The translations under genes were made by a program, and so were the position numbers. DNA of 64,000 bases from a virus. Positions 23,129 to 64,000 of the stretch are shown here, piece after piece. The notes below the pieces were generated by a model. It made no database searches, had not been told where the DNA came from, and worked only from the letters and a program-made list of their open reading frames with translations. The stretch's first letter is position 1, and every line of letters starts with the position of its first letter. The DNA is taken from UHGV virus genome UHGV-1351982; one strand, given 5' to 3'.

Positions 23129-23140
23129 GTAAAATTTCAA

Positions 23141-23170
23141 AGAAAAAAGGAGACCCGAAGATCTCCTTGT
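23141..23170 (-). terminator. rho-independent terminator after nrdA
   Basis: Hairpin aggagatc-ttcg-ggtctcct with U-run on the minus transcript. Confidence 0.5.
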
Positions 23171-23175
23171 TTTTA

Positions 23176-25506: not shown

Positions 25507-25629
25507 TTGGCTTTCCTTTTTGTAGTTATCAGGATTTAGGAAATATTCTACTTTGTTTTGGGTCATTTTGCAAGTACAATTTTACAGATAAAAAGAGCCC
25601 GGATATTTTCATACCCAGGCTCGTCTGTC

Positions 25630-47831: not shown

Positions 47832-47914
47832 TTATTGTATAATATACACATAAATTTGAGAGAGAAAGTTTCGGATTGATAAGAAAGTCCGAAGCAGAAA
47901 AATAAAAATTGTAC

Positions 47915-47943
47915 TTGTCAAATCCTCCCGATTTAATGTATAA
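47915..47943 (+). promoter_or_regulatory. sigma70-like early promoter
   Basis: ttgtca, 17 nt, tataat, leader ataaattgatgagag. Confidence 0.5.
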
Positions 47944-47971
47944 TATATACATAAATTGATGAGAGACAAAA

Positions 47972-48334
47972 ATGAAATTCTTTGATTACGAGAGAATTTA
48001 CCTCTTAGCTAGAGGAAACTCCGACCTGATTGTCAAGCTATTTAATAGAATGCTTGCAGAGCCTGATGCTCACCAGTTACTGGTCGGTTCTTCATTCATC
48101 TTGAATGAATCAACTATTGTTGATAACCCTTACAAATTGTCTAATAGACAACTGGCAGAATATCTAGGAATTCTAAGTCTACGAAATTATGCCGAATATA
48201 AGTTTACAAACGATCCGAGTTTGGACATGCAATATGTTCCCATATGGATACCACGTTCTGTAATCGACACTAACCCACTAATTGCAATCAATAAATCGAA
48301 GATAATCTTTAAAGAGGAAATAAAATATGGCTAA
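47972..48334 (+). CDS. hypothetical protein (120 aa)
   Basis: ORF with GAGAGA RBS. Confidence 0.5.
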   Translation: MKFFDYERIYLLARGNSDLIVKLFNRMLAEPDAHQLLVGSSFILNESTIVDNPYKLSNRQLAEYLGILSLRNYAEYKFTNDPSLDMQYVPIWIPRSVIDTNPLIAINKSKIIFKEEIKYG

Positions 48335-49100
48335 GTCTTGGGGCGAAACTACTGGCGGTTCTAACGATAAAATCGACTTCCTGAAATTCAACAACGGTGT
48401 AACTCGTGTTCGTATCGTTTCTGGTGTTCTTCCACGTTATGTCTACTGGCTGACTAACAAAGATGGTAATGCAGCTCCGTTTGAGTGCCTGCGTTTCAAC
48501 CGTACTAAAGAGAGCTTCGTTCGCGGTAAAGCTGACCCGATTCACGAAATGGGCTTCTTCGAGAAAGAGCTGGACAAAGATGGTAATCGTGTTCCGCTGA
48601 AACCGAAGAAAAACTACATCGCTTTCGTTATCGACCGTTCTGATAACAAACTGAAAGTTATGGAAGTTAAAGCTACTATCCTGAAAGGCATCCAGTCTAT
48701 CATGAAGCAGCTGAAACTGTCCGACCCGTTCGATATCGATATTTCTATCGAGAAGAAAGGTAAAGGCTTCGATACTGAGTACGATGTACAGCAGATCGCA
48801 GCAATGCAGTTCCAGATGGCTCTGAAAGATCCTACTAGCGCAGAAGCTAAACTGCACGCCGCAGATGCCGATATTCTCGGTGAAGCTATGTGTGATGATA
48901 CTGGTGAGTTCATCAAGTTTGAAAAAGTTCCTTCTCTGGAAGAAACCTACCCGGTTCCGTCCTACGAAGAGCAGAAAGAAGCTATTCTCGCCTTCATGGA
49001 AGGTCGTGAGAAGCAAGACGGCGGTGACGCTAAGTCTGGTGGTGATGCTGGTTCTCAGAAAGGCATCGACGCTGAAGCTGCTAGCGATCTGGACGACTAA
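48327..49100 (+). CDS. putative single-stranded DNA-binding protein
   Basis: 257 aa, host-optimal codons, acidic C-terminal tail (EAASDLDD) typical of SSBs; sits inside the replication module. Confidence 0.45.
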   Translation: MAKSWGETTGGSNDKIDFLKFNNGVTRVRIVSGVLPRYVYWLTNKDGNAAPFECLRFNRTKESFVRGKADPIHEMGFFEKELDKDGNRVPLKPKKNYIAFVIDRSDNKLKVMEVKATILKGIQSIMKQLKLSDPFDIDISIEKKGKGFDTEYDVQQIAAMQFQMALKDPTSAEAKLHAADADILGEAMCDDTGEFIKFEKVPSLEETYPVPSYEEQKEAILAFMEGREKQDGGDAKSGGDAGSQKGIDAEAASDLDD

Positions 49101-49105
49101 TAAAC

Positions 49106-49134
49106 CAAGGGGAGCTACGGCTCCCTTTCTTTTT
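49106..49134 (+). terminator. rho-independent terminator
   Basis: Hairpin gggagc-tac-ggctccc plus T-run. Confidence 0.55.
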
Positions 49135-49139
49135 AACTT

Positions 49140-50117
49140 ATGAGAATACTATTTAGTGCTGATCATCATATCAAATTAGGACAAGATAAAGTTCCAAAGG
49201 AATGGCAGAAGCGTCGCTTCCTGATGCTAGGAGAACGGTTAAATGACATATTCCATAATCATAACTGTGATCTGCATATTGCTGGTGGTGATATTCTTGA
49301 TGTTGCCGACCCATCGTCGGAAGAAATAGAACTTCTTGAACAGTTCATGTCAAGACTTGACCATTCAGGCAAGATCTTCACTGGGAACCATGAAATGTTA
49401 ACTAAAACTATTTCATGTCTGTATCATTATGCAGGAGTTATTAATAAAGTAACAAACGGAAATTGGGAAGTCATTACTAAACCATATCGTTCTCCTGAAT
49501 TTGATATTATCCCTTATGATGAAATCCACAAACCAAAGTGGAAACCATCTGAATCAAAACTATGTTTCACGCATGTTCGTGGTGAAATCCCTCCACATGT
49601 AAAACCAGAGATTGATCTAACGAGGTATAACTGTTATGACACTGTAATTGCTGGCGATTTACATTCTTATACTAATAGTCAAACTGTTGGTTCTACTAGA
49701 CTTCTTTATCCAGGATCTCCATTAACTACATCGTTCCATAGAGAAAGAACAAAAGGTACAAATGGTTGTTTTATCATTGATACCGACACATTAAAAGTAG
49801 AATGGATTGAACTTGGTGACTTACCACAACTGATTCGTAAAACAATCGGAGTTGGTGAGGAAATGGAGCCTAGTGACTATGACCGTGTAATTTATGAAGT
49901 CACTGGTGACGTCGTTCAGTTAAAGTCTATTAAAGATTCCGATCTCTTAGATAAAAAGATTAACCATCGAGTTACTAAAGATGCTAAGTTAAATCTTGTT
50001 GATCTTGATATGTTAGGCGAGCTTGAGCTTTACTTCCGTGAAGTTGAAAAGCTGTCTCAAGACGACATTGATAGAATCTTGGCTAGAGCTGCTAAATATG
50101 TCAAAGATTATAATTAA
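49140..50117 (+). CDS. SbcD/Mre11-like nuclease
   Basis: Calcineurin-like phosphoesterase start MRILFSADHH, later GNHE motif. Confidence 0.6.
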   Translation: MRILFSADHHIKLGQDKVPKEWQKRRFLMLGERLNDIFHNHNCDLHIAGGDILDVADPSSEEIELLEQFMSRLDHSGKIFTGNHEMLTKTISCLYHYAGVINKVTNGNWEVITKPYRSPEFDIIPYDEIHKPKWKPSESKLCFTHVRGEIPPHVKPEIDLTRYNCYDTVIAGDLHSYTNSQTVGSTRLLYPGSPLTTSFHRERTKGTNGCFIIDTDTLKVEWIELGDLPQLIRKTIGVGEEMEPSDYDRVIYEVTGDVVQLKSIKDSDLLDKKINHRVTKDAKLNLVDLDMLGELELYFREVEKLSQDDIDRILARAAKYVKDYN

Positions 50118-51936
50118 GACACTAAAATTCAGCAACGTTATGTCTTACGGTAAGGATATAGTAATTCATTTCGATAAGAATCCAGTTACTCAGTTAATCG
50201 GAGGAAACGGTCTAGGGAAGTCCACTATTGCTACTGTTATCGAGGAATTGTTCTATAACAAGAACTCACGTGGTATCAAGAAGGACGCCCTATTCTCTTG
50301 GGGTTCTCCGAAGAAAGAGTATGATATGCACGCTTACTTCTCGAAAGATGAAGATGAGTATGAGTTGCATAAAGTAGTTAAATCAACTGCTAAGGTTACA
50401 CTGATTAAGAATGGAGAAGATATCAGTGGACACACAGCAACTCAAACGTACAAGATGATTGAAGAGATTATGGGTGGTGACTTCCAAACATTCACTAAAC
50501 TGATCTATCAATCTGTTGGTTCCAATCTAGACTTCCTCAAAGCAACTGATGCAACACGTAAAGCTTTTCTTGTTAATCTGTTCAATCAGGAACAGTATAA
50601 AGAGATGTCAGAAACTATTAAGGCTGATCGTAAAGAAGTGGCAAGTACGTTAAGTAACTTGCAAGGCCAGATGGCCGTAATTACGAAGATCCTCAACGGA
50701 AAAGGCAATCTCGGAAGTTTACAAGAGCCAGTTGAAGTTCCAGAGTTTGATGAAGAACCATTAGCACAAGAACTTACTGAATCGAAAATTAAGGCGGCAT
50801 TAGCCAAGTCACAAGAGGCTAATATTACTAAACTCCGTAATTTGGACAAAGCTGTACAAGTTGCCGAACAATCTTTCGAGCCTTTCAAAAATTTCCCTGC
50901 GCCCACTGACCAATCTGAAGAGATCTCAAGTGTTACGCGTGACCTAACGATTGTTACCTCACGTGCGGGAGAAGTCAAGAAACGTTATCAGAAGTTTAAG
51001 CAAGAGGCTTCAAATACTGAATGTCCTACTTGTGGTACGCATCTTGATACAACTGCTGCTCAAAAAGCAATGGATATGGCTAGAACAGAATATGATCCTC
51101 TGTTTAAAGAGAAACAATCTCTTGAAGCTACATTGGAGCAGTTAAAGAAAGAACAACTCGAGTACACTGCGTATACTAGAGCTAAAGATACTTTGGATAG
51201 GGCAGTAGCAGCTAGAGACGAGTTCAAAAATTCAATGAGTGATGCTTCTTTTGAAGAACTCAATGTGCAAATCCTACAGGTGCAAATCCGACAATTAGAA
51301 CAGGAAATCGCAGATGGACGTTCTAAAGTTGCAATTGCCAAAGAGCATAATGCAAATGTCGAATTAGCCAATGCAAAATATAAGGCGAAATTAGAACAGA
51401 TTGAGAAAGCTGAGGCAGAAATGTCTGAGATAACGTCCAAACTGGATGGAGTATCAGAAGCTGTTGCTGATCTTGATATTCTGATCACTGCATTGAAAAA
51501 TCTGGTAGGATATAAATTAGAGCATAGTGTGAAAGTATTTGAGGAATTGATTAATAAATATCTTTCTATTATGACTGGTGGTAAGTTCGCACTTGGATTT
51601 GAGCTTGATGAAACGAAATTACAAGTAGTAATCTTCAATGATGGGAACCGTACCAGTATGGAGAACTGCTCTACTGGTCAGCAAAGTAGAATTAACCTAG
51701 CAACTCTGTTAGCTATTCGAATGCTGTTAACATCTATTAGTAAAGTTAATATTAATCTTCTGTTCCTTGACGAAGTTATTAGCTTTATTGATACGAAAGG
51801 ACTTGATACTCTCGTTGAATTATTAAATGAGGAAGATAGTCTGAATTCTATCATTGTTTCTCATGGGCATACGCATCCATTAGCCCATAAGATTACTGTC
51901 AAAAAAGATGCAGAAGGATTTTCCTACTTAGAATAA
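50098..51936 (+). CDS. SbcC/Rad50-like ATPase
   Basis: Walker A GGNGLGKST, long central coiled coil, C-terminal signature/Walker B region (LFLDEVISF). Confidence 0.6.
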   Translation: MSKIIIKTLKFSNVMSYGKDIVIHFDKNPVTQLIGGNGLGKSTIATVIEELFYNKNSRGIKKDALFSWGSPKKEYDMHAYFSKDEDEYELHKVVKSTAKVTLIKNGEDISGHTATQTYKMIEEIMGGDFQTFTKLIYQSVGSNLDFLKATDATRKAFLVNLFNQEQYKEMSETIKADRKEVASTLSNLQGQMAVITKILNGKGNLGSLQEPVEVPEFDEEPLAQELTESKIKAALAKSQEANITKLRNLDKAVQVAEQSFEPFKNFPAPTDQSEEISSVTRDLTIVTSRAGEVKKRYQKFKQEASNTECPTCGTHLDTTAAQKAMDMARTEYDPLFKEKQSLEATLEQLKKEQLEYTAYTRAKDTLDRAVAARDEFKNSMSDASFEELNVQILQVQIRQLEQEIADGRSKVAIAKEHNANVELANAKYKAKLEQIEKAEAEMSEITSKLDGVSEAVADLDILITALKNLVGYKLEHSVKVFEELINKYLSIMTGGKFALGFELDETKLQVVIFNDGNRTSMENCSTGQQSRINLATLLAIRMLLTSISKVNINLLFLDEVISFIDTKGLDTLVELLNEEDSLNSIIVSHGHTHPLAHKITVKKDAEGFSYLE

Positions 51937-51939
51937 AAC

Positions 51940-52422
51940 ATGGCCGTAGATAGTAGAGAGAAAGGTAAACGTGGGGAATATCAGGTAAGAGATATACTAC
52001 GTGAACGTACAGGTCTTGAGTGGGAACGTGTTCCAGGCTCTGGTGCTTTTGGCCAGAGCCATGGACTGAAGGGCGACATCTACCTTCCACCACAAAGCGG
52101 ACACATTAGTAAATACTGCTTCGAAGTTAAGTGGTATAAAGATGATAACATATCAAGTAATTTATTTAACGTTGGTGAATCCACTCTAGAGAAGTGGTGG
52201 CAGCAGTGTTCCCGTGAGGGTGAACAGATGAACTCCAAACCAGCCTTAATATTCAAGAAAGACAGAGGACAGTGGTTAATTGCTTTGGATAGCTCAGACC
52301 CGATGGTAGACAACTTAATGAGTCGTACCCATATGGTGTTAAATAAGAAAGACATGGAAATCGTAATCGGGTTATTCGAACCGTGGTTACATCACGCATC
52401 TGTTGAGGACTTAATTAAATAA
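51940..52422 (+). CDS. putative PD-(D/E)xK nuclease / Holliday junction resolvase-like protein
   Basis: 160 aa; GDIYL ... FEVKW matches a D ... E-x-K arrangement. Confidence 0.4.
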   Translation: MAVDSREKGKRGEYQVRDILRERTGLEWERVPGSGAFGQSHGLKGDIYLPPQSGHISKYCFEVKWYKDDNISSNLFNVGESTLEKWWQQCSREGEQMNSKPALIFKKDRGQWLIALDSSDPMVDNLMSRTHMVLNKKDMEIVIGLFEPWLHHASVEDLIK

Positions 52423-53297
52423 TGAGTAAATCCTGGGGAAAATTTATTGAAGAGGAAGAAGCTGAGCTGGCTTCTCGTCGCAACCTAATGATTGTTGATG
52501 GAACTAACTTAGGCTTCCGCTTCAAACATAATAATAGTAAGAAACCATTCGCATCAAGTTATGTTTCTACAATTCAATCTCTGGCAAAATCCTATTCAGC
52601 TAGAACTACAATAGTTCTCGGTGATAAAGGAAAGTCTGTATTCCGTTTAGAGCATCTCCCTGATTATAAAGGGAACCGTGACGAAAAGTATGCACAACGT
52701 ACAGAAGAAGAAAAAGCACTAGATGAACAGTTCTTTGAATATCTTCGTGATGCTTTCGAATTATGTGAAACCACATTCCCGACCTTTACTATTCGTGGTG
52801 TAGAAGCAGACGATATGGCAGCTTATATTGTTAAGCTCATTGGTCATTTATATGATCACGTTTGGCTGATCTCTACTGATGGTGACTGGGATACCCTATT
52901 AACTGATCGAGTTTCTCGCTTCTCCTTCACCACACGTCGTGAGTACCATCTTCGTGATATGTATGAACACCATAACGTTGATGATGTTGATCAGTTTATC
53001 TCCCTGAAAGCAATCATGGGGGATCTCGGTGATAACATTCGCGGCGTTGAAGGCATTGGTGCAAAACGTGGTTATAACATTATCCGTGAATTTGGTAATG
53101 TTCTGGATATTATTGATCAACTCCCTCTGCCTGGGAAACAGAAGTATATACAGAATCTGAACGCATCGGAGGAGTTGCTTTTCCGAAACTTGATTCTGGT
53201 TGATTTACCGACCTATTGTGTAGATGCTATTGCTGCTGTGGGTCAAGACGTATTAGATAAGTTTACGAGAGATATTTTGGAGATCGCAGGACAATGA
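52422..53297 (+). CDS. flap endonuclease / 5'-3' exonuclease
   Basis: N-terminal LMIVDGTNLGFR and acidic metal-binding clusters; H3TH-like C-terminal region. Confidence 0.65.
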   Translation: MSKSWGKFIEEEEAELASRRNLMIVDGTNLGFRFKHNNSKKPFASSYVSTIQSLAKSYSARTTIVLGDKGKSVFRLEHLPDYKGNRDEKYAQRTEEEKALDEQFFEYLRDAFELCETTFPTFTIRGVEADDMAAYIVKLIGHLYDHVWLISTDGDWDTLLTDRVSRFSFTTRREYHLRDMYEHHNVDDVDQFISLKAIMGDLGDNIRGVEGIGAKRGYNIIREFGNVLDIIDQLPLPGKQKYIQNLNASEELLFRNLILVDLPTYCVDAIAAVGQDVLDKFTRDILEIAGQ

Positions 53298-53740
53298 TTA
53301 AAATTAAACTAACTCATCCAGATTGCATGCCAAAGATTGGCTCTGATGATGCCGCAGGTATGGATCTGCGTGCGTTCTTCGGCACTAACCTTGCAGCAGA
53401 TTTACGTGCTATTGCACCAGGCAAATCCCTTATGATTGACACCGGTGTTGCGGTGGAAATTCCGCGAGGTTGGTTTGGTTTGGTAGTTCCTCGCAGCTCT
53501 TTAGGTAAGCGTAAACTGATGATCGCAAATACCGCAGGAGTGATCGACTCAGACTACCGTGGTACTATTAAGATGAACCTTTATAACTACGGTTCTGAAA
53601 TGCAAACTCTGGAGAATTTCGAGAGACTTTGTCAGCTAGTAGTACTACCACACTACTCAACTCATCATTTTGAAATCGTTGACGAACTAGAGGAGACTGA
53701 TCGTGGAGAAGGCGGCTTTGGAAGCTCAGGAAGTAAATAA
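53294..53740 (+). CDS. dut: dUTP pyrophosphatase
   Basis: dUTPase motifs AAGMDLRA, PRSS, GVIDSDYRG. Confidence 0.7.
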   Translation: MIKIKLTHPDCMPKIGSDDAAGMDLRAFFGTNLAADLRAIAPGKSLMIDTGVAVEIPRGWFGLVVPRSSLGKRKLMIANTAGVIDSDYRGTIKMNLYNYGSEMQTLENFERLCQLVVLPHYSTHHFEIVDELEETDRGEGGFGSSGSK

Positions 53741-53972
53741 TTATAACTATTCAGATCCTAATATGGTAGGCAATTTTGAGCAGTCAAATACTTATCATGT
53801 TGCAGTTGCTGAACCTAACCTGAATAATGTAGTTCTTAAGGTAGATCGTGAAGGTAACGTAATCCATTGGGATGAAGAAGCTTTTGTCGAATTATGTAGT
53901 AAGTCTGATGATCCTACACTTAGAACTATGTTGGCAGTGTTTAACTTAGGTATTATTGCTGGAAGCAGATAA
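53703..53972 (+). CDS. hypothetical protein; start uncertain (GTG at 53703 or ATG at 53763)
   Basis: ORF overlapping the dut 3' end. Confidence 0.4.
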   Translation: MEKAALEAQEVNNYNYSDPNMVGNFEQSNTYHVAVAEPNLNNVVLKVDREGNVIHWDEEAFVELCSKSDDPTLRTMLAVFNLGIIAGSR

Positions 53973-53977
53973 TAATA

Positions 53978-54007
53978 AACCCCAGTGGATTTCCACTGGG
54001 GTTTTCT
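53978..54007. terminator. bidirectional rho-independent terminator between convergent early and tail genes
   Basis: Hairpin ccccagtgg-attt-ccactgggg flanked by A-run on one side and T-run on the other. Confidence 0.6.
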
Positions 54008-54008
54008 T

Positions 54009-55223
54009 TTACTTATCAAGTAATTGTTTTACCAATTTCTTAAGTTCATCAATTTCTTGCTGTTGCTTTTCAACAACTTCATTAAGTTCATTAAAAGCAT
54101 TAACTAGGAGAGCGGTAACACCGCTATAACTTACACCTAAATACTCGCTGTTAGAGATTTTATAAACAGCCTCCGGCAAAACTGCCTGTACATCCTGAGC
54201 TATTACACTTGCTTCCTCAGAATAAATAGAGTGTTCATCTTCATCAAGATTATTACGTTTAAAATAAGTATAACCCTTAATAGATTTAACTTTCTCTCTT
54301 GCTGTTTTAATCTCTTTTAAATTGGCTTTTAATCTAATATCAGAAGTGCTAACCCATTGAACGCAAGACGCATATCCAGCATCATTAAATGTGTAGATTG
54401 CACCTTTTATGTTAAAATGAGCCTCACAACCCCCGGCACTATATCTAACAACATCAAGGCCAGCAGCCCAGTCACCACCCCATCTAACTACTTTAAACAC
54501 GTTTGAGGCAGCATCATCACCTGGTAATTCAACAAGAAGGCCACAAGCGCGATCGGCTTCAGCCTTAGCACGATTTGCCTCAGTAGTAGCATCTACAGCC
54601 TTATCTCCTGCTTCTACAGCAGAACCAGCCGCATTAGTTTCTGATTCTTTAGCATTTAATTCTGATTGTTTAGCGGAAGCAGCATGTTCTCCAGCAGTTG
54701 TAGCAGCAGCTTCTGCACCTGCTTTTGCTGTTTCAGCACCAGTCTTAGCAGTTTCTGCAGCTGTCTGAGCTTGTTGAGCCGCAGTTTTAGCTTGTTCGGC
54801 AAGTCTACGACTGGTCTCCGCATTTTGAGCAGCTAATTCAGCAGAATTCCTGAATCCTTTAGATTCTTCCGCCGATGTAGCGGATGCTTCAGCACTCTTT
54901 TGTGACAGACCAGCTTGTCTCTCAGCTTCCGCGGCAGATGCCGCAGATTGAGTTGCAGATGTTTCAGAAGAAGTAGCATAAATTGCAGCTAGGTTCTCCG
55001 AGTCCTTAGCATTTGTTTCAGATTCTTTTGCTGCAATCTCAGAATCTTTTGCTGCCGCAGCAGAAGAAGCAGAGGCTTCTACAGCAGCAGTTAATTCACC
55101 AGCAGTAATAGAACTAATAGAATTACCTAAAACTACTGTATATTTAGGATACTTACTAGCAGTAGTTGTAGTGTCATCTATATTCAGAATCTGCTGTACA
55201 ATAATTTTAGTTTTAAGTGCCAT
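54009..55223 (-). CDS. tail fibre protein with C-terminal intramolecular chaperone (peptidase S74-like) domain
   Basis: Ala-rich coiled-coil body; C-terminus SDIRLKANLKEI ... GYTYF ... ASVIAQDVQAVLPEAV resembles the S74 chaperone domain. Confidence 0.55.
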   Translation of the reverse strand: MALKTKIIVQQILNIDDTTTTASKYPKYTVVLGNSISSITAGELTAAVEASASSAAAAKDSEIAAKESETNAKDSENLAAIYATSSETSATQSAASAAEAERQAGLSQKSAEASATSAEESKGFRNSAELAAQNAETSRRLAEQAKTAAQQAQTAAETAKTGAETAKAGAEAAATTAGEHAASAKQSELNAKESETNAAGSAVEAGDKAVDATTEANRAKAEADRACGLLVELPGDDAASNVFKVVRWGGDWAAGLDVVRYSAGGCEAHFNIKGAIYTFNDAGYASCVQWVSTSDIRLKANLKEIKTAREKVKSIKGYTYFKRNNLDEDEHSIYSEEASVIAQDVQAVLPEAVYKISNSEYLGVSYSGVTALLVNAFNELNEVVEKQQQEIDELKKLVKQLLDK

Positions 55224-55645
55224 TATTGAGTTACTCCATCGCTGATGTATACTTTACCTTCCATAATACGGAAAGAACTGACTTCAGAGCCAATTACATC
55301 ACGAGTCATTAGGATATCATAATAACCAGCAAAACGTTGTCTTGGGTTATACTTATCACGTTCTTTAGATGCTTTTTCACCAATATTAGTAACGTCTGCA
55401 ACGGAAAGACTAATTGCAGCAGCACCTTGAGCAGCATCAATAACACGAGTTTTAAAGTTAGCTAGAACCTCGGCGTTCTCATCTAAACTAGATTTAATAG
55501 TTCCTCGGAGTGAATATCCGGTTAAGTTAACAGGAACTTCTGTTGGTGGATATACACTGTCATCAACATCCATAAACTGCATGATAAGACCATAAGGTAC
55601 TTTCTCATCAACAACAATATCAATAACTCGGTTTTCTGTACTCAT
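55223..55645 (-). CDS. tail structural protein (140 aa)
   Basis: AAGGTA RBS; TAATG coupling to the fibre gene. Confidence 0.45.
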
Positions 55646-55650
55646 TATAA

Positions 55651-57708
55651 TTACCTTATATGGATATACCCACTATTTAGGTCTATCTTCATCTTGTAGT
55701 ATGCTTCAGGGTTCCCTGATAACGCAGCATTTCTATCATAGATTATATTAACACCGATTTGTGATAAGAAGGCATTTCCTGCCACAATCTTATCCGCAGT
55801 AACAGTTCCATTAACAATCATATTGCCATGAAGAACCATTGCAGGGTTAATCCATCCAGCTCCGTTCCATTGACGGGTAAATGCTGTTTGTGGAGCATTA
55901 CTGTTAAATTGTGTTAGAACATCGTATTTAACCGGAGGTTTTCCAAAGTTATTTTGAAAGAATGCGTTAGCTTGTCCATCATCCCAACCGCCTAATCCAG
56001 GAATACCCATGGAGTACATCCCAGGACCACGCTGTCCATCATGTCCTATAGTACCTTCAGTACCACTCCATTGAACTACATCAGACCAGCTAGTACCTTC
56101 AAGAAGTTTGTCAGTAACTGGATCAAGTGTACCTGTAGTCGCATAGATATTTTGTGTCATATCTGTACGGTTAGGTGGAGTTTTTGACCAACCAGGAGGT
56201 GGATAATCTTGTTCTAACGGTTTGGCCGGTAAAGATGTTGCTAACTTATAAACAAATACTATTTGCTTACCTTGTAAACCAGTTCCAATATCTACGTCAC
56301 CATTTGGTGTTCCAATTACTACACCACTAGAAATACGCAGAGTAGTACCATCATAACGTATCCATTGTGTAGCATTACCAATGTCTAACTTAGCTTTGGC
56401 AGAGGTATTATCCATACCCATCCAAATACCAGAGTTATTATCCCCCCAGGATTTACCTTGAGTGTAAATTGCTGGGTTATCTTTACCAGACAAGTTAGTC
56501 ATGATAAAGTTCGCAGCATTAATATCTCTAGTAATTACTTTACCATCAACGTTAACAACACGGTTTATAGGGTCAAAAGAAATAGGTGCTTTACCTTCTT
56601 CATCTAGCAGACCAATGTTAATAGCACCAGTAGCTGCATCAATTAGGAATGTTTGTCTCCAGATTTCCCCATCTTTCATACTACCCTTAATAAAGGCATA
56701 GTTAACATCAATACCCGTCTCATTGACAAAACTATTATCTAGAGGAGTATCTTCATTCAGAATAAATGTTACAGGAGATGACTCTGTTATATCTTGTTTG
56801 TTTGGTCCCCAGGCAATTGATGAAACCTTAAAGGTATGTTCAACTTTCCATGGGAATGATATAATCGTTGCAGCTCTGGCAGCACCCACGTTTATCTTTT
56901 GAGCTTTAGCCCATCCGGTTTTAGCGTATTCCTCGGAGTTTATGTAAGTAACCAAGAATTCACGAACGTTAGCACCAGCACCACGTTCCCAGTCCCACTC
57001 AATTCTAACATCATATCGTTCTTTACCATCAGCAATTCGTGCAGCTTTAAAAACAATATCGATAGGTGCAGTAGGAGGAACAAAATTATAAGCTACAGTT
57101 AGAATATTAGGGAACTCATAGTACCCAGAAGAATCAACTGTAACACCATCAGGCATAGTTACTTGACCAGATATTCTGATCTTATAATCTCCGATAGGAA
57201 CTCCACCAAATTTAATAGTAGAACCTAAAGCCCCAATATAATATTTAGTCCATGGACTGTCTTCAGTGGCTGTACTTTTTAACTCAATAGTACAGTAGCT
57301 TGCTTCACCAGTTGTTTCCACAACAACTATTGGTGCGCCCACCCCAACATCCACAGGTTCTGACTCAGATCTTGCTGCAACAATTATTGGCTTCTCTTTT
57401 GTTTTAAAGTTAGTTTCATTAGAGAGGTTAATACCAATTTTTGCATTTAAAAGTTCTGAGTCAATAATTGAGTCATAAAAAGCTCCCTGAACCTGATAGG
57501 TAGTTGAGGGAGTTAAGTTATTGATCATAACAAAGAAAGTGTCGATTCCAGTGAAATCTCTCCTATCCACTTCTTCGCCAAGTTTAAGCCAGAATGATCT
57601 ACCGATAACATCGTAGTCGGTATAGATAGAATGCTGGATATACGCCATAGTATATCCAGTCATAATACTATTTAAGACCATCTTGGCTGGTGCATTATTC
57701 GAAATCAT
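55651..57708 (-). CDS. tail baseplate protein, T5 pb4-like
   Basis: 685 aa Gly/Thr/Asn-rich structural protein in the pb2-pb9-pb3-pb4 gene order. Confidence 0.5.
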
Positions 57709-60558
57709 TTAAATAGATGCCCAATCCACAGATTGCTCGCCATTATCACCTTCTGCTCTTATACGGAAGCGTAACTTCCTATTAATACCTAGAGCATCCT
57801 CGTTATGAAGAGCATAGTCTGCCTTATTGTATATCAGTAGATAATCGTAGACATACTGATCTTCAATTCGTACACTTCTTAATAAACGATCTAGGTTATC
57901 GTAGATTTCGAGAGTGTAGAAGATTCCATCAATGATATCTTCTTCTGGAATTCTATCCCAGGCCAACTTAACGTCTGGTCCTACAAACTCCGATGCATCT
58001 CCTGAAGCTGTGTTAGTAACCCTGAAATTACTAACGATGCTTAAGTTTTTAGCAGAGTTAAGTTCTACCGATAATGTTACAGGAGAACTTCGTCTACCAT
58101 TAATATCTACAGCTCTAATCTCAAAGACTGCTAAACCAGCAGGTTCTCCAATAATTTCTTGGATCATTCGTAGATTTGGATTAGTTTCTAGTTGCTGTAT
58201 GATATAAGGATCAGCATGCCCTGAATGAACGATGGAGTAATAAACAACGTTATTAGTTAAGCTAGGAAGCCAAGATAACTCACCATTCTTACCAATAGAT
58301 CCTACTTGTCCACCCGGTGTTGGTGTGTACATAAAGTCTCTAGGAGGCAGTACGTTATTACTAACATCAGGGATATCGTTACCACTATTATCAACCTGCT
58401 CGGAGTTAATGAATACATCCTCACCATACTCTTGCAGTGTAATATTAATCTTACCTTCTCTAGAGTTTTCAACTTCATCAACTAGGAAGTATTTCTTATC
58501 CCAACCATAACGACCATATGTAAAAGCAATCGGATCGTTAGGCTCAATGCCTATGAAATGATATGGTAATGAGAATGTGAGAGTTCGTGAGTAACGAGAC
58601 TTTTTCAGTTCTCTATCTGCAAAGCTACGTGCAGTATAGTAGTTAGTGATATTTGCAAAAGAAAGCTGAAGTTTTTTATCTAATCCTTTATCTTGTTCCT
58701 TAAATATAGAGTTAAAGAATGTAATGGAGTTAGTTTTCCAGCTTAATGCGGGATCTAATATAGAGGCTTGTACTGAGTTAAACTTATTTCTACCAGTAGT
58801 ATCTGATAGCTCCAGATCACCATAGGTATCTAAGAAGTCAATCTCTAATGGGGTGTTTGAGAACTTCTCAACAGTTATTCTATACTGTCCAGATAAGTTG
58901 TTGATAGCACCGCCATAAGACTCTATTAATCCCTGCACGTTTTTAAATACTGACTCAGAGGTATCGAGAATAGTATTCATTTGAACTATTTGTCTATTCT
59001 CTCCTACAGCATCAGTCCATCCAACGTATCTCCAGTAGGGTTGCCAAGAAACCTGATAGGATTCATCAATGATATCCAGGATAGCTGCTTCTTGAATAAG
59101 TTGCTGGAGAGGGAACTGATCAATAGTGATATTAGCACCATAGCGATCAGAGGTTAGGTAGTCCAGAGTTTGCCAGATACCATTTAAGCTAGTCTTGTCA
59201 GCAGTTACTCTACCATCTGAATGATAGATCTTAATCTTCTTACCCTGAACTTCAGCACTAACTTCTGGAATTTCTGTTCTGTTTTCATTAATAGTAAAGC
59301 GAACGATAGCATAAGCAGTATCTAACAGTTTATAACGAGAGTCCCAGTATTCCGGGCCATTCTCATTCATGTTCTGTAAATAGAAACCTTTCTCTTTTGC
59401 AATGTTAACTAGAACATCCGCAGCAGATTGATCTGCTTTACCATGATAAGTCCATATACGGATATCGCCATTACCATCATTATACTTATATTCCTGTCCA
59501 TGAACAGAAGGTTCAGAGCTTGGCTGGCCTGAAGCAATACGTTGCATGGTATCACCAGCTACTTTCTTAGTACCAAAGCAAGTACGAGACTTACTATCAT
59601 TAGGATCAATACAGATCATTGGTACATCACCAAAGTAGAAATCTAGGAATCCATCAATCTCACCCTCACAGAAAGCGTATACTACATATACGATATTAGG
59701 GTTATGCAGTTCAGTATCTGCGAATACTGGGATTCCAGGAATTTTCTGAACTCCGTACACTACTGGCAGGAATTTAGCAGCTAAGTTAAAATCAAGATCT
59801 ACTTCCTTAGTTACAGTCTCATAGTATTTCTTTAGGCTATAGCTTCTAGAAAGACCAAATAACTTTTTCTTAGATTGTAACTTATAACGTTCTTCCTGAA
59901 CCTGATACTTAGCAAGAATAGAGATACTCTTGTTAGCGTGGAAGAACCCGTAGTCCTCTTGATATTCAGGTCGCTTAGCACCATTAGACGGAACTAATTG
60001 TCCGGCAACAATCTCAAGCCCTCTATGGTCAGCATCATCTGTGAAACGTCCATTTACTCTATCAAAGTCATAGAATTGGTTTGAACAGTTCCATGTAATA
60101 ACGGATGTACTAACTCCCGAAGTACCAATGTTATCCTTAATACCACCACCAGTGATTTTACCACGGAAGTAAAGTAAAGGACCATTAGTGTCTGGATCTA
60201 CAGGAAGAATGTTACCTTCTTCATCAATAACCGCTTGATGGATTGAGATAGATCTATCTAGGAAGGATACACCATTTTGGACTAGTTTTAATACTTCATC
60301 CTCAGCAGTACCTGTGATAGTAAAAGAAAGGCTACCAATGGAAAGTTTTCTATTTTGTTTATGTGTTGTTATAGACTTAACTTTACCGGATGTGTAAAGA
60401 ATACCATTATAAATTACATCCCTAAAATAGTCTGTAAGATAAATGTATGCAGAACTTGATCCGGTAGAGCTTGGCAATTCAAGAGTAATAAGGCATGCAG
60501 TTTTTATTTTATTATTAGTTCTTAAATACTCTCTTGCACTGTCAAGAATTTTCTTCAT
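57709..60558 (-). CDS. baseplate hub protein, T5 pb3-like
   Basis: 949 aa structural protein between the pb9-like and pb4-like genes. Confidence 0.5.
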   Translation of the reverse strand: MKKILDSAREYLRTNNKIKTACLITLELPSSTGSSSAYIYLTDYFRDVIYNGILYTSGKVKSITTHKQNRKLSIGSLSFTITGTAEDEVLKLVQNGVSFLDRSISIHQAVIDEEGNILPVDPDTNGPLLYFRGKITGGGIKDNIGTSGVSTSVITWNCSNQFYDFDRVNGRFTDDADHRGLEIVAGQLVPSNGAKRPEYQEDYGFFHANKSISILAKYQVQEERYKLQSKKKLFGLSRSYSLKKYYETVTKEVDLDFNLAAKFLPVVYGVQKIPGIPVFADTELHNPNIVYVVYAFCEGEIDGFLDFYFGDVPMICIDPNDSKSRTCFGTKKVAGDTMQRIASGQPSSEPSVHGQEYKYNDGNGDIRIWTYHGKADQSAADVLVNIAKEKGFYLQNMNENGPEYWDSRYKLLDTAYAIVRFTINENRTEIPEVSAEVQGKKIKIYHSDGRVTADKTSLNGIWQTLDYLTSDRYGANITIDQFPLQQLIQEAAILDIIDESYQVSWQPYWRYVGWTDAVGENRQIVQMNTILDTSESVFKNVQGLIESYGGAINNLSGQYRITVEKFSNTPLEIDFLDTYGDLELSDTTGRNKFNSVQASILDPALSWKTNSITFFNSIFKEQDKGLDKKLQLSFANITNYYTARSFADRELKKSRYSRTLTFSLPYHFIGIEPNDPIAFTYGRYGWDKKYFLVDEVENSREGKINITLQEYGEDVFINSEQVDNSGNDIPDVSNNVLPPRDFMYTPTPGGQVGSIGKNGELSWLPSLTNNVVYYSIVHSGHADPYIIQQLETNPNLRMIQEIIGEPAGLAVFEIRAVDINGRRSSPVTLSVELNSAKNLSIVSNFRVTNTASGDASEFVGPDVKLAWDRIPEEDIIDGIFYTLEIYDNLDRLLRSVRIEDQYVYDYLLIYNKADYALHNEDALGINRKLRFRIRAEGDNGEQSVDWASI

Positions 60559-61169
60559 AGACTTTCCCTCAAGGAAAGTGAAATACCAGTATATGTACCA
60601 TTACTATTTAACGTAGAGCCGAAGCTGTCTCCGTTCATTAATTTAGTTCTAAATAGAATACCATTAAATACCGGTTTCTCACTACCCGTAGTAGTAATGA
60701 ATAGATCAGGGTAAACACTTATATTCCAAGTATTTCCTACTGTGTTGATAGAAGTGATTTTGTACACTTTTGGGTGGTTGGACAATTTAAATAAATCGCC
60801 TGGTTTAGGCAGTCCACGAAGTGTACCTTTAGTGTCCATAATAACTGTTGAACCTTTTTGTCCAGCAGGAATATTTACAGCACTAGTATCACCACGAACT
60901 CGGAAAGCTTCATATTGTGGTAATAACACATCAATATAGCTACCTGTTCTTTTGTAATCTAGAATGAATGAATCTAATTTAGCAAATTCATCTGGGAATA
61001 ATTCTGGATAAGAGATATTAATACCCCAATATTGAGCAGACACCTTAACCTCCCTAACTTTACCATTAGGTAATTCATCACGAATCATAGGGTCATTGTC
61101 TACTAAGTTAACGCTTTCAAAACCTAACCCTGATAGCTCTGGGTTCGTGTATGGGTCTGGTAGTCTCAT
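60555..61169 (-). CDS. distal tail protein (Dit), T5 pb9-like
   Basis: 204 aa gene immediately downstream of the tape measure gene; AAGAGGAG RBS. Confidence 0.5.
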   Translation of the reverse strand: MRLPDPYTNPELSGLGFESVNLVDNDPMIRDELPNGKVREVKVSAQYWGINISYPELFPDEFAKLDSFILDYKRTGSYIDVLLPQYEAFRVRGDTSAVNIPAGQKGSTVIMDTKGTLRGLPKPGDLFKLSNHPKVYKITSINTVGNTWNISVYPDLFITTTGSEKPVFNGILFRTKLMNGDSFGSTLNSNGTYTGISLSLRESL

Positions 61170-61195
61170 AGTTAATTTCTCCTCTTAATAACAAT

Positions 61196-61224
61196 ATTAT
61201 AATAGGATTGGAAAATTTTATCAA
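61196..61224 (-). promoter_or_regulatory. sigma70-like promoter upstream of the Dit/hub/pb4 operon
   Basis: Minus strand: ttgata, 17 nt, tataat, then AAGAGGAG RBS. Confidence 0.45.
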
Positions 61225-61244
61225 GAAATTTTTATTTTTCCATA

Positions 61245-61268
61245 AAGAAAAGGAGGACATAAAGTCCT
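61245..61268 (-). terminator. rho-independent terminator after the tape measure gene
   Basis: Hairpin ggaggac-tttat-gtcctcc with U-run on the minus transcript. Confidence 0.5.
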
Positions 61269-61277
61269 CCTCCAGTA

Positions 61278-64000
61278 TTAAGAATTACCAAGTGATTTCA
61301 GGGTGGTTCCATTCTCATTAAGAGCCTGTTCCACGGCATCCCTGAAAGCAGCACTATTGCTCGAAGCAAAATCTCGGAAGCTAGCCGCATCCATCGTACT
61401 GATGTTCAGCACAATAGGTCTACCCGATGTGCCTTTTGAAGATCCTTTGAGTTCATCAGTAGGGGTAGCCTTCATCGGAACCATAGGAGTGATTACTTCG
61501 GTACCATGCTCACCCATCTGGTAACTAACTCCAGGATACATATTACCACCTTCTGCACGAGGTACGAAAGAGTTAGCATTACCAATCCCTTGATCTCCTC
61601 GAATATAAGAAAGTTCACCTGCGTTAGCCGACATAGAAACGTCTACATTCTTCTGGCGCTCTCCAAGAGTTAAGTAACCCGCTGTCTCAGCACCAGAGTC
61701 TCCAATAGAAGACATACCAGATGCAGAGGATGCTTGAGCAAGAGCCATAGCACCTGCTAAACCAGCCGCAACCATCAGAGGAATAGAGAATGGATACGGA
61801 ACAGCTGTTGCTGCTTGCATCACCGCTACTGCCGTCTGGATAATGATTTGCTTCTTAGCTGCATCTTGCTGGATCTTGAGCTTTTCAGCCTCTAACTTCT
61901 TGATCTTAGCTTTGGATTGCTCAGATTTACCATCACGTTTCTGTTCTGCTGCAATAGCTGCATCAATAGCACTTACCTGTTGACCAACACTATACTGAAT
62001 CATTGAAGACACAGTTTGCATACCAGCCGCTACTAGAGAAGTGGTATCCAGAGATCCTTGTGAGAACTGGATCATAGCGTTAGTTAGGTTACCCATGCTT
62101 TGTGCTACAGCGGTTGCTTCGGAGTTCAGTTCAGACAGCTTAGAAATAGCCTGGTCATAGGACGCCATTCTATTCTGCATATCTGCGAAGTTTTTATCTT
62201 CTCCAGTTAATCCAGTAGTAGGAGTATACGTAGCCCCTACAGCCGCACCTACAGAAGACTGCATTTCTGCATCGCGCTGTACTCTTAAAGCTGCGAGCTG
62301 GGCTCTAGTTTCTGCTAGCTTTTTATTATACTCTAACTGAGCAGCAGCATTCCCTAAAGTTTTTTGCTTAAGGTCTTCGAATAGCTGGATTTGCTCCTTG
62401 ATACGTTCCGCAGCTCCCATTAAAGGATTTGCGGTAAATTTCCTTTGTTGCTCCTCTTCCCTGCCAGCAGCCATTTCCCTTTGCTGATCCTGACGGAATT
62501 TCCAGATTTCACGTTCAATTTGTGCCTGAGCACGTCTTGATTGTTCAGCTTCCTTATGCTTATCAACCTGTTTGGAGTACCATTCATACTTTTCTTTCTC
62601 GACAGTCAGTTCAAGGTTCAACTGAGCTAAACGATATTGAGTATCTGTCATAGTACGGTTATTCAGGAGAGCAATTTCACGATCAACACCAAGAATCTTA
62701 TCGGTATAGTCCTTAACCTTCTTCTGGGCTTCCATACCCTGGTTAGTAATCTTGATACGTTCTAACTGAATCTTAGCTATTTCACCTTCGATTGCTTTGT
62801 TACCTTTGTTAGTTTCTAGGACACGCTTAAGAGCTGCTTCCTGTTCTTCTAACTGTTGAATTTCCAAACGTCTACCAGCTTCCTGTGCTTTCTCTTTGTC
62901 CTTAGTCTGGTTATACACTTCGGCAATCTTCTGCTGAACTTCTAACTGATTCTTAGTCTCATTACCAGTTAATTTTACATAACCAGCAAGAGCTTGTGAA
63001 GCAGTCTTCATCTCACTAAGAGTATTATATCCTAAGTTCAGGCTCTTAACATACTCATCAGCATTTTTACCAGTACCAGCAGAAAGAGACTCAATAGTCT
63101 TAATCGTATCTGATAGGGATGCACTAGTTTTAGCCGCAGTATTAGTATTCTGAGCAATGTTCTGGATATCATTAGCTAAGTCGCTAGCAGTTTTCTTAGC
63201 TTGGTCATACGCTTTCTGCTGTTCTGTCAATCCTTTCAGAGTTGCAGAGTTAAAGTCATAAACCGCATCAGGATCATTCATATCCTTCTGCAGATTAATC
63301 TGCTTCTGAAATTCTGGATTAGCCTTAGCAGCCGCAGCACCCGCAGCTTGATATGCAGATTTCCATGCACCTAAATTATCGGTTGAATCAGTAACTTCCT
63401 TATCCAAACGTTCTACTTGGAGTGCCATAGCCGCAGTTTCAGCTACGAACTTCTTGTTTTCCTCAGAAGCACCAAGAGCCGCAGCACTTACCGGAACACC
63501 CTGAGCCACAGAACGAATTGCACCTGCAGTAAAGAAGTCAGCCTGTTCCATACGCTTGTCTAGATCAGCTTTTAACTTATTACGCTTTTCTAGAGATTCT
63601 TTATACATATCAAGAGCTTTATTATACCCTTCCTCAGAAGCGGAAAGACTTAAAGCTACAGCGCCAACGTTAGTTGGGTCAATCTGACGGTTAGTTTCTT
63701 CCTGTGCTCTAGCAGCAGAAGCTGAGATAGATGCTTGAGAAGTATAGAATACTGCGTTAATAGAATCAATTACCGGACCTAAATACTTAGCAGCAGCCTG
63801 TTGAACCTTTCTCAGTGCAGCATCAGCATTAGCAGCAAACTGTTCCCATGGAGTTGCGCGAAGTACATCATCTAGGTAGCCGAAACGTTTAGTAGATTCA
63901 GCGATTACTGCGTTAGCATATGCTTGTTGCTTCTGGAAAGTAGATAGACTATTAACGTTATATGTAATACCTGTGTTAGCAGCATTTAACTGTTTAACAT
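61278..64000 (-). CDS. tail tape measure protein (T5 pb2-like), C-terminal part; gene continues past the window end
   Basis: Coding frame stays open on the minus strand to the window edge; long coiled-coil Ala/Gln/Lys-rich protein with hydrophobic Gly-rich segment. Confidence 0.6.
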   Translation of the reverse strand, partial: VKQLNAANTGITYNVNSLSTFQKQQAYANAVIAESTKRFGYLDDVLRATPWEQFAANADAALRKVQQAAAKYLGPVIDSINAVFYTSQASISASAARAQEETNRQIDPTNVGAVALSLSASEEGYNKALDMYKESLEKRNKLKADLDKRMEQADFFTAGAIRSVAQGVPVSAAALGASEENKKFVAETAAMALQVERLDKEVTDSTDNLGAWKSAYQAAGAAAAKANPEFQKQINLQKDMNDPDAVYDFNSATLKGLTEQQKAYDQAKKTASDLANDIQNIAQNTNTAAKTSASLSDTIKTIESLSAGTGKNADEYVKSLNLGYNTLSEMKTASQALAGYVKLTGNETKNQLEVQQKIAEVYNQTKDKEKAQEAGRRLEIQQLEEQEAALKRVLETNKGNKAIEGEIAKIQLERIKITNQGMEAQKKVKDYTDKILGVDREIALLNNRTMTDTQYRLAQLNLELTVEKEKYEWYSKQVDKHKEAEQSRRAQAQIEREIWKFRQDQQREMAAGREEEQQRKFTANPLMGAAERIKEQIQLFEDLKQKTLGNAAAQLEYNKKLAETRAQLAALRVQRDAEMQSSVGAAVGATYTPTTGLTGEDKNFADMQNRMASYDQAISKLSELNSEATAVAQSMGNLTNAMIQFSQGSLDTTSLVAAGMQTVSSMIQYSVGQQVSAIDAAIAAEQKRDGKSEQSKAKIKKLEAEKLKIQQDAAKKQIIIQTAVAVMQAATAVPYPFSIPLMVAAGLAGAMALAQASSASGMSSIGDSGAETAGYLTLGERQKNVDVSMSANAGELSYIRGDQGIGNANSFVPRAEGGNMYPGVSYQMGEHGTEVITPMVPMKATPTDELKGSSKGTSGRPIVLNISTMDAASFRDFASSNSAAFRDAVEQALNENGTTLKSLGNS

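What the first reader, a model, noticed from the sequence alone, without database searches (positions are those of the whole stretch)
54009..55223. Short tail fibre with self-cleaving chaperone domain
At 404 aa this fibre gene is small for the slot it occupies next to pb4 and is dominated by an Ala-rich coiled coil plus an S74-like C-terminal chaperone. This suggests a swapped receptor-binding module, so host range may differ from related phages.
Basis: partly seen in the sequence, partly recalled or inferred. Interest (0 to 1): 0.45.

Follow-up and report, generated by a model that had tools for sequence, protein, structure and literature searches.

The report
Tail-fibre stub left by a deletion
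This short tail-fibre gene of a T5-like Salmonella phage is what remains after a 3.85-kb deletion fused the start of one fibre gene (ltfA) to the end of the next (ltfB), removing most of the host-recognition parts; this kind of mutation is already documented in T5-like phages.

Summary
The ORF is real: 54009-55223 on the minus strand, 404 aa. It has an Ala-rich coiled coil and a C-terminal Peptidase_S74 chaperone with an intact T|SDIRLK cleavage motif. It is not a fibre with a swapped receptor-binding module.

The window is an Epseptimavirus, about 98% identical to phages A148, STK8t and PECP14. Annotated relatives such as STK8t and Stitch carry two fibre genes at this position: ltfA (1027-1074 aa) and ltfB (661-696 aa).

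- **N-terminal part:** codons 1-226 are the ltfA 5' end, 99.3-99.4% nt identical to relatives.
- **C-terminal part:** the last 178 codons are the ltfB 3' end, 89% nt identical.
- **Junction:** the two parts join in frame at an 8-9 nt microhomology, GATCGCGC(A). In STK8t this motif occurs exactly twice in the ltfA-ltfB region, at the two breakpoints, 3854 nt apart.
- **What was lost:** the LtfB-docking region, the LtfA receptor-binding end, and about 190 of roughly 255 residues of the LtfB distal module.

No phage record and no protein cluster carries this fusion; the exact protein occurs on one Logan contig.

Golomidova et al. 2016 described the same class of spontaneous in-register ltfA-ltfB fusions (DT530(1), DT571/2-ABF), which arise when T5-like phages are grown on hosts without O-antigen.

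The likely product is an anchored, possibly self-cleaving stub that cannot bind O-antigen. This is an ordinary finding of low interest.

The parts
54009..55223 (-). Fused ltfA'-'ltfB ORF, 404 aa including the stop codon
   Evidence: ORF list. The two halves match ltfA and ltfB of relatives.
55107..55223 (-). aa 1-39: LtfA N-terminal anchor. These are the beta-strand/'lasso' residues that insert into the LtfC collar.
   Evidence: Alignment to DT57C LtfA 8HQZ. The structure description says the helix starts at T40 (PMC10713586).
54546..55106 (-). aa 40-226: Ala-rich (32.8% Ala over aa 41-226) trimeric coiled-coil shaft of LtfA
   Evidence: Composition; AF2 helix 41-198; 8HQZ match; 99.3-99.4% nt identity to Stitch, A148 and STK8t ltfA.
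54547..54554 (-). Deletion junction: the 8-nt microhomology GATCGCGC shared by ltfA and ltfB (9 nt, GATCGCGCA, in A148 and STK8t). It lies in the shared tripeptide D-R-A.
   Evidence: The two BLAST pieces overlap at this point. Junction alignment. The motif occurs only at L002 7081 and 10935 in STK8t ltfA-ltfB. Translation reads EADRA|CGLLV.
54345..54545 (-). aa 227-293: the last 67 residues of the LtfB distal module, predicted as a small beta unit immediately before the cleavage site
   Evidence: 92-93% aa identity to residues 485-661 of 661-aa LtfB proteins P0001-P0003. AF2 strands 238-287 with pLDDT 80-87. Homology to the S16 gp37 tip 6F45.
54012..54344 (-). aa 294-404: Peptidase_S74 intramolecular chaperone. 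The predicted scissile bond is T293|S294, with catalytic Ser294 (54342-54344) and Lys299 (54327-54329).
   Evidence: Pfam PF13884. SDIRLK motif. The same spacing is seen in T5 pb1, T1263|S1264...K1269 (PMC4690869).
53977..54004 (.). 12-bp-stem hairpin between the convergent late (ltf) and early transcription units; a terminator-like site on both strands
   Evidence: Terminator scan and sequence.
55223..55645 (-). ltfC / p132 collar protein (140 aa), the docking partner of the fibre's N-terminus
   Evidence: Pfam PF23926 LtfC, E=1.9e-15. Annotated as the collar protein in STK8t.

Best explanation
The 404-aa gene is a deletion derivative of the two-gene lateral tail-fibre locus (ltfA + ltfB) of an Epseptimavirus, a T5-like Salmonella phage. 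A spontaneous recombination or replication-slippage event between two copies of an 8-9 nt microhomology, GATCGCGC(A), removed about 3.85 kb. One copy lies in ltfA codons 224-226 and the other in ltfB codons ~480-482. The event fused LtfA residues 1-226 in frame to the last 178 residues of LtfB.

Shown: the fusion keeps the collar-anchoring N-terminus, the coiled-coil shaft, a 67-residue distal beta unit and a complete S74 chaperone with its Ser/Lys cleavage motif. It has lost the LtfB-docking region (DT57C LtfA 223-471), the LtfA receptor-binding C-terminal region and about three quarters of the LtfB distal module.

Inferred: the protein probably still trimerises, inserts into the LtfC collar and cleaves off its chaperone. 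That would leave a 293-aa stub of roughly 28 nm that can no longer bind O-antigen. The phage would then depend on its central-fibre receptor-binding protein alone and would plate only on hosts whose outer-membrane receptor is not shielded by O-antigen. Such mutants are viable and are enriched when T5-like phages are grown on rough or O-antigen-less hosts.
For: - **Collinearity with one gap.** Window 44000-64000 is 97.7-97.9% identical and collinear with A148, STK8t and PECP14. The single discontinuity is at 54547-54554, where the relatives hold about 3.85 kb more.
- **Two genes in relatives.** STK8t has ltfA of 1027 aa and ltfB of 661 aa; Stitch has 1074 aa and 696 aa.
- **Origin of the two halves.** ORF nt 1-677 is 99.3-99.4% identical to the ltfA 5' end of Stitch, A148, STK8t and others. 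ORF nt 678-1215 is 89% identical to the ltfB 3' end of A148 and STK8t.
- **Breakpoints.** GATCGCGC(A) occurs exactly twice in the STK8t ltfA-ltfB region, at the two breakpoints 3854 nt apart.
- **The cut falls inside a conserved module.** LtfB residues ~300-661 form one continuous homology block in more than 30 homologues, including T1-like and 9g-like fibres. The junction lies within it.
- **No other carrier.** None of the 298 matching phage records has both halves adjacent. No protein among 5.8 billion clusters covers more than 61% of the ORF. The junction is absent from IMG/VR and GTDB genomes. The exact protein exists once, on a 101.7-kb Logan contig.
- **Precedent.** Golomidova 2016 (PMC4728585) reports spontaneous in-register ltfA-ltfB fusion deletions, DT530(1) and DT571/2-ABF. 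About 30% of plaques were LTF-deficient after growth on rough E. coli C600. LTFs are dispensable on rough hosts (also PMC10713586).
- **Folding and cleavage are plausible.** The TSDIRLK motif is intact. The C-terminal 158 aa are homologous to the 204-aa S16 gp37 chain of 6F45 (E=6.6e-14). S16 gp37 autocleaves its last 113 residues after trimerisation, and only about 70 mature residues are resolved in 6F45.
Against: - **No identified parent.** The ltfB-derived half is only 89% nt and 92-93% aa identical to the nearest known ltfB. Its exact allele was found in no collection. The undeleted parent is therefore inferred, not observed.
- **No read-level support or sample metadata** could be obtained. 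The status of the deletion as fixed, lab-selected or natural is unknown.
- **Short microhomology.** It is only 8-9 nt, whereas the published DT57C-type fusions arose between longer repeats.
- **The cut may not be destructive.** A monomer AF2 model of a complete distal module places the junction in a linker between two beta sub-domains. The retained tip could be an intact folding unit, so a residual function cannot be excluded.
Confidence: 0.85

Rival explanations
1. This is a naturally maintained, functional minimal fibre. The coiled-coil shaft carries the last beta unit of the LtfB-type tip, which still contacts a surface glycan after the chaperone is released. Under this reading the short gene is an adaptive architecture with altered host range, which is the spirit of the first reader's idea.
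For: The fusion is in frame and keeps an intact chaperone and cleavage motif. AF2 places the junction in a linker between two beta sub-domains, and the retained 67 aa are predicted with pLDDT 80-87. A comparably short S16 gp37 chain is processed, with only about 70 mature residues resolved in 6F45. In T5 pb1 the receptor site is proposed to lie at the very distal end, unmasked by chaperone release (PMC4690869).
Against: No other genome or protein in any collection searched has this architecture. All natural homologues keep the whole ~250-residue distal module across the junction position. The much milder fusion in DT530(1) already gave a 'severely functionally compromised fiber'. The breakpoint sits on a microhomology that flanks the missing DNA in relatives, which is the signature of a recent deletion. 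The flanks are 98-99% identical to two-gene phages, so there has been no time for independent evolution.
Confidence: 0.08
2. This is an assembly or sample artefact. The junction would come from a chimeric read or contig, or from a minority deletion variant in a mixed population whose majority genome still has both genes.
For: The sequence comes from an automated Logan assembly of a public run, and read support could not be inspected. LTF-deletion variants are known to coexist with wild type in stocks.
Against: The shared sequence is only 8-9 nt, too short to cause a repeat collapse in a k-mer assembler (inference). The junction is in frame and exactly on the microhomology. The 101.7-kb contig runs straight through it, which a mixed population with a major wild-type allele would normally break (inference).
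Confidence: 0.05
3. This is a deliberately engineered fibre deletion, a laboratory delta-ltf construct.
For: T5-like phage ltf loci are routinely edited by plasmid recombination.
Against: The breakpoints are not at gene or domain boundaries chosen by design. There is no scar, marker or cloning site. The junction lies in a natural microhomology.
Confidence: 0.02

Closest known systems
Spontaneous ltfA-ltfB fusion deletions of T5-like phages DT530(1) and DT571/2-ABF (Golomidova et al. 2016, PMC4728585)
   Same: The locus is the same, and so is the kind of event: a large in-register deletion joins the N-terminal part of LtfA to the C-terminal part of LtfB in a single ORF. These mutants are viable because LTFs are dispensable on O-antigen-less hosts.
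   Different: Those fusions arose by homologous recombination between long ltfA/ltfB repeats and kept most of the fibre; DT571/2-ABF is LtfA 1-663 + LtfB 288-767. Here only an 8-9 nt microhomology was used and far more is lost: LtfA 1-226 plus the last 178 residues of LtfB. The genus also differs (Epseptimavirus of Salmonella rather than Tequintavirus of E. coli).
DT57C LtfA (PDB 8HQZ) and the N-terminus of T5 pb1/Ltf
   Same: Residues 1-230 align at E=4e-97. The collar-inserting N-terminus and the trimeric coiled coil starting near T40 are shared, as is the gene position downstream of ltfC.
   Different: The phiEco32 gp14-like LtfB-docking region (223-471), the repeat region and LtfA's own C-terminal receptor-binding region are all absent.
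LtfB-type distal module with S74 chaperone (661-aa LtfB of STK8t and UTK0010; side fibres of T1-like and 9g-like phages)
   Same: The last 178 aa are 92-93% identical to 661-aa LtfB proteins and 77-85% identical to T1-like and 9g-like fibre ends. The cleavage motif and chaperone are the same.
   Different: Only the final 67 of about 255 pre-cleavage residues of the module are present.
T5 pb1 C-terminal intramolecular chaperone (Garcia-Doval et al. 2015, PMC4690869) and the S16 gp37 tip (PDB 6F45)
   Same: The T/S|S-D-x-R-x-K autoproteolytic motif and chaperone are shared. The short S16 chain shows that a small pre-chaperone unit is processed.
   Different: The T5 bullet-shaped receptor-binding domain is unrelated in sequence. 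The S16 tip serves as a dock for a separate adhesin, gp38, which has no counterpart at this locus.

Membership tests
T5-like lateral (L-shaped) tail fibre protein LtfA/pb1 | N-terminal collar-binding segment followed by a trimeric coiled coil homologous to LtfA/pb1 | tested here: met
   phmmer against PDB: 8HQZ chain d, residues 1-230, E=4e-97. AF2 helix 41-198.
T5-like lateral (L-shaped) tail fibre protein LtfA/pb1 | Gene lies immediately downstream of ltfC/p132 in the pb3-pb4-ltfC-ltf late operon | tested here: met
   ORF order and Pfam hits for pb4 and LtfC. The order is the same in Stitch and STK8t.
T5-like lateral (L-shaped) tail fibre protein LtfA/pb1 | Full-length shaft with LtfB-docking region and C-terminal receptor-binding region | tested here: not met
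   Everything after LtfA residue 226 is deleted. The docking region is 223-471 in DT57C.
Peptidase S74 intramolecular chaperone (PF13884) | Profile match above the curated threshold at the C-terminus | tested here: met
   PF13884, 48.2 bits against a cutoff of 22, aa 294-354, profile positions 1-58 of 58.
Peptidase S74 intramolecular chaperone (PF13884) | Catalytic Ser and Lys in the S-D-x-R-x-K motif at the domain start | tested here: met
   T293|S294-D-I-R-L-K299. The spacing matches T5 pb1 S1264/K1269.
Peptidase S74 intramolecular chaperone (PF13884) | A correctly folded trimeric beta structure upstream supplies residues needed for cleavage. In T5 these are Asp1239 and Arg1250 of a neighbouring chain. 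| tested here: inconclusive
   The 67 retained residues are predicted as beta strands with pLDDT 80-87 and are homologous to the S16 gp37 chain of 6F45, a protein that self-cleaves. Only monomer models were possible, and the equivalent Asp/Arg residues were not mapped.
Peptidase S74 intramolecular chaperone (PF13884) | Actual autoproteolytic release of the chaperone | not testable with these tools
   Needs expression plus SDS-PAGE or mass spectrometry.
Spontaneous ltfA-ltfB fusion deletion mutants of T5-like phages | Closest relatives carry separate ltfA and ltfB, and the single ORF joins the LtfA N-part to the LtfB C-part in register | tested here: met
Spontaneous ltfA-ltfB fusion deletion mutants of T5-like phages | Sequence identity between the two genes at the breakpoints | tested here: met
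   GATCGCGC(A) is present exactly at both breakpoints in STK8t and A148. It is much shorter than the repeats invoked for DT530(1).
Spontaneous ltfA-ltfB fusion deletion mutants of T5-like phages | Arose or was enriched during growth on a host lacking O-antigen, with loss of plating on smooth hosts | not testable with these tools
   No sample metadata could be retrieved, and the phenotype needs wet-lab assays.

The most novel reading that the evidence does not exclude
The stub is a working 'minimal fibre'. A coiled-coil rod would present only the last 67-residue beta unit of an LtfB-type tip, which after chaperone release still binds a surface glycan. That would imply the receptor contact of this widespread fibre-tip module (shared by T5-like, T1-like and 9g-like phages) resides in its final beta unit, and that it can be grafted directly onto a coiled coil.
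Probability: 0.07. Interest if true: 0.5.

Novelty: new member of a known kind. Interest (0 to 1): 0.2.

Why it matters
The practical consequence concerns annotation and host-range inference. This gene should not be read as a novel receptor-binding protein. The phage it comes from is most likely a fibre-defective variant whose host range on smooth Salmonella is reduced. That is relevant if the isolate is considered for biocontrol or used as a reference genome.

The finding adds a clean natural example that the ltf locus of T5-like phages loses DNA readily, here through only 8-9 nt of microhomology. It also offers a ready-made minimal construct (anchor, coiled coil, 67-aa tip and chaperone) for testing what the S74 chaperone needs in order to fold and cleave. 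It does not reveal a new system.

Tried and rejected
- **Foldseek of the 404-aa AF2 model against PDB.** It returned only generic coiled-coil matches (E >= 0.07), because the monomer model is dominated by one long helix (pTM 0.26). Uninformative.
- **Foldseek of the complete distal module, P0020.** It gave only weak hits: Mu tail fibre 5YVQ at E=3e-4 with TM 0.18, and the S16 gp37 tip at TMt about 0.6. This supports the homology already seen by sequence but does not define the fold.
- **The look-up of encoding contigs for the exact protein.** Nothing was on record, so sample identity and neighbours beyond the window could not be obtained.
- **Exact-match scans for an undeleted parent.** The junction and the ltfB-side allele were sought in IMG/VR, GTDB genomes and JGI metagenomes. 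All were empty, so no parent was identified.
- **Possible frameshift or premature stop as the cause of shortness.** Rejected: both halves are read in their native frames and the stop codon is the native ltfB stop.
- **Apparent 776-aa ORF in the tape-measure gene.** I checked whether it signalled a second lesion. It does not: tblastn shows 100% aa identity to STK8t TMP residues 321-1226 in a single frame up to the window edge.
- **In-vitro restriction/religation at GATC.** Considered and rejected, because identity extends to 8-9 nt and many other GATC sites would lie in between (inference).

Full report
**Observation**

The finding's coordinates are exact. A 404-aa ORF runs from 55223 to 54009 on the minus strand. 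Its ATG overlaps the stop codon of the upstream gene.

Pfam places a Peptidase_S74 'chaperone of endosialidase' domain at residues 294-354, with E=1.3e-12 and 48.2 bits against a cutoff of 22. The three upstream genes are identified as LtfC/p132 collar protein (55223-55645), pb4 (55651-57708) and pb3 (57709-60558).

Residues 41-226 are 32.8% alanine and are predicted as one long helix, 41-198. The only correction is that the immediate neighbour is ltfC, with pb4 one gene further on.

**What the window is**

Window 44000-64000 is 97.7-97.9% identical and collinear with Epseptimavirus genomes: 'Campylobacter' phage A148, Salmonella phage STK8t and Escherichia phage PECP14. Identity to Stitch, 118970_sal2 and many others is 96.7-97.9%. 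The whole window is collinear with STK8t.

In every such alignment the match breaks into two pieces at window 54547-54554, and the relative holds about 3.85 kb more DNA at that point. In the annotated relatives this slot contains two fibre genes. STK8t has ltfA of 1027 aa and ltfB of 661 aa. Stitch has 1074 aa and 696 aa.

**Anatomy of the ORF**

- **5' part.** Nucleotides 1-677 of the ORF (codons 1-226) are 99.3-99.4% identical to the 5' end of ltfA in Stitch, A148, STK8t and others.
- **3' part.** Nucleotides 678-1215 are 89% identical to the 3' end of ltfB in A148 and STK8t. At protein level they are 92-93% identical to residues 485-661 of 661-aa LtfB proteins.
- **Junction.** The two BLAST pieces overlap by 8 nt. 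The alignment shows the motif GATCGCGC(A) in both parental genes. It encodes the shared tripeptide D-R-A: LtfA ...AEADRA|AQIVD and LtfB ...GWRDRA|SGLLVELP. The window reads ...AEADRA|CGLLVELP.
- **Breakpoints.** In STK8t the octamer occurs exactly twice in the 5-kb ltfA-ltfB region, at the two breakpoints, 3854 nt apart. This is the signature of a microhomology-mediated deletion from a two-gene ancestor.
- **Native ends.** The fusion preserves the native ltfA start, the native ltfB frame and stop, and the hairpin terminator at 53977-54004 between the convergent late and early units.

**What was kept and what was lost**

Kept:
- The N-terminal about 39 residues. In the DT57C cryo-EM structure these thread into the dodecameric LtfC collar.
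- The trimeric coiled coil that starts at T40 (PDB 8HQZ, E=4e-97; PMC10713586).
- The last 67 residues of the LtfB distal module.
- The complete S74 chaperone. Its motif T293|S294-D-I-R-L-K299 has the same arrangement as T5 pb1 T1263|S1264...K1269, where Ser1264 and Lys1269 drive autoproteolysis (PMC4690869).

Lost:
- The region of LtfA (223-471 in DT57C) thought to dock LtfB (PMC4728585).
- The LtfA shaft repeats and its C-terminal receptor-binding region.
- LtfB residues 1-482.

The LtfB distal module (about residues 300-550 plus the chaperone) is a single continuous homology block in more than 30 homologues. These include the side fibres of T1-like and 9g-like phages. The block runs uninterrupted across the junction position. 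The deletion therefore removes about three quarters of it.

**Uniqueness**

- None of 298 matching phage records has the two halves within joining distance.
- No protein among 5.8 billion clusters covers more than 61% of the ORF.
- The junction 28-mer is absent from IMG/VR and GTDB genomes.
- The ltfB-side allele is absent from IMG/VR and JGI metagenomes.
- The exact protein exists once, on a 101,664-nt Logan contig. Its sample could not be retrieved.

**Mechanism and consequence**

Golomidova et al. (PMC4728585) showed that DT57C-type phages carry branched fibres. LtfA is anchored to the tail and LtfB hangs on LtfA, and each binds a different O-antigen. These fibres are essential on O-antigen-producing hosts but dispensable on rough E. 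coli C600. LTF-deficient mutants reached about 30% of plaques after growth on C600.

[quoted passage not shown] Work on the Epseptimavirus phi37 likewise uses an O-antigen-free production strain, stated there to prevent Ltf evolution during passaging. It also shows that Ltf determines serovar range (bioRxiv 10.1101/2023.11.08.566301).

The gene in this window is a more drastic member of the same class. I infer that its product is a stub.

It may well fold and self-process. The C-terminal 158 residues are homologous (E=6.6e-14) to the 204-aa S16 gp37 chain of PDB 6F45. Only about 70 mature residues are resolved in that structure. S16 gp37 autocleaves its last 113 residues after trimerisation (PMC7917993). 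AlphaFold2 also predicts the retained 67 residues as a confident beta unit (pLDDT 80-87). In a model of an intact distal module it places the junction in a linker between two beta sub-domains.

With only a quarter of the tip module and no LtfA head, O-antigen binding is most likely gone. Infection would then rely on the central-fibre receptor-binding protein alone. The steps from 'folds and cleaves' onward are inference, not shown.

**Rivals**

- **A maintained functional minimal fibre.** This cannot be excluded but is unlikely (about 0.08). It has no relatives, its flanks are 98-99% identical to two-gene phages, and the breakpoints lie on a microhomology.
- **An assembly artefact or minor variant.** Unlikely (about 0.05), because 8-9 nt cannot collapse a k-mer graph and the contig runs through the junction. 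Read mapping was not possible.
- **Deliberate engineering.** Unlikely (about 0.02), because of the position and nature of the junction.

The domain calls and the remark on size were right. The 'swapped receptor-binding module' was not: nothing foreign was brought in and most of the recognition apparatus was taken out.

**Verdict**

This is a real feature, correctly located, and explained as a spontaneous ltfA-ltfB fusion deletion. It is a new allele of an already described kind. It has low intrinsic novelty and is mainly useful as a caution for annotation and host-range prediction. Interest is 0.2.

Noticed in passing
window 22557-23234 (-): A 225-aa ORF with an HNH-type motif (VDHKDTNKLNNHPLNLR) sits between the ribonucleotide reductase small-subunit (21408-22553) and large-subunit (23176-25566) genes. 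The ~535-nt stretch 22562-23098 has no counterpart in STK8t, so this is probably a mobile homing endonuclease. The HNH call rests on reading the motif by eye; no profile search was run.
   Followed up: partly
window 53977-54004: A perfect 12-bp-stem hairpin (AAACCCCAGTGG-loop-CCACTGGGGTTT) lies between the convergent fibre gene and the early-region 89-aa ORF/dUTPase genes. It scores as terminator-like on both strands, so it is likely a bidirectional terminator at the early/late boundary.
   Followed up: partly
window 52500-54550: Identity to A148 drops from 99-100% to 94-96% across the flap-endonuclease/dUTPase genes, and to 83-85% at 53750-54000 and 54250-54550. This is a divergent patch next to the deletion. 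The parent therefore carried an unsampled allele of this whole region, not just of ltfB.
   Followed up: partly
window 75-12393 (-): A cluster of 18 tRNA genes, typical of T5-like phages. Several small indels and 92-95% identity blocks relative to STK8t lie within it.
   Followed up: no
L003 (MG065642.1) and hit H24 (PQ773600.1): The closest public genome is labelled 'UNVERIFIED: Campylobacter phage A148'. Another ltf match is labelled 'Corynebacterium phage CPphiVTCCBPA_418' (41 kb). Both carry typical Salmonella/E. coli T5-like fibre sequences, so the host labels look doubtful and may reflect contaminant or mis-assigned records.
   Followed up: no
P0012 (Salmonella phage SE1Kor, 354 aa) and P0020 (118970_sal2, 381 aa): Some public genomes annotate short 'tail fiber proteins' that are simply the complete LtfB-type distal module plus chaperone without an N-terminal shaft. 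They may be split gene calls or separate distal subunits, so the ltf locus architecture varies more than a simple one-gene or two-gene scheme.
   Followed up: partly
window 61278-64000 (-): The ORF lister shows a 776-aa ORF in the tape-measure gene, which could be mistaken for a truncation. tblastn shows 100% aa identity to STK8t TMP residues 321-1226 in a single frame up to the window edge, so the gene is intact and simply runs off the window.
   Followed up: yes
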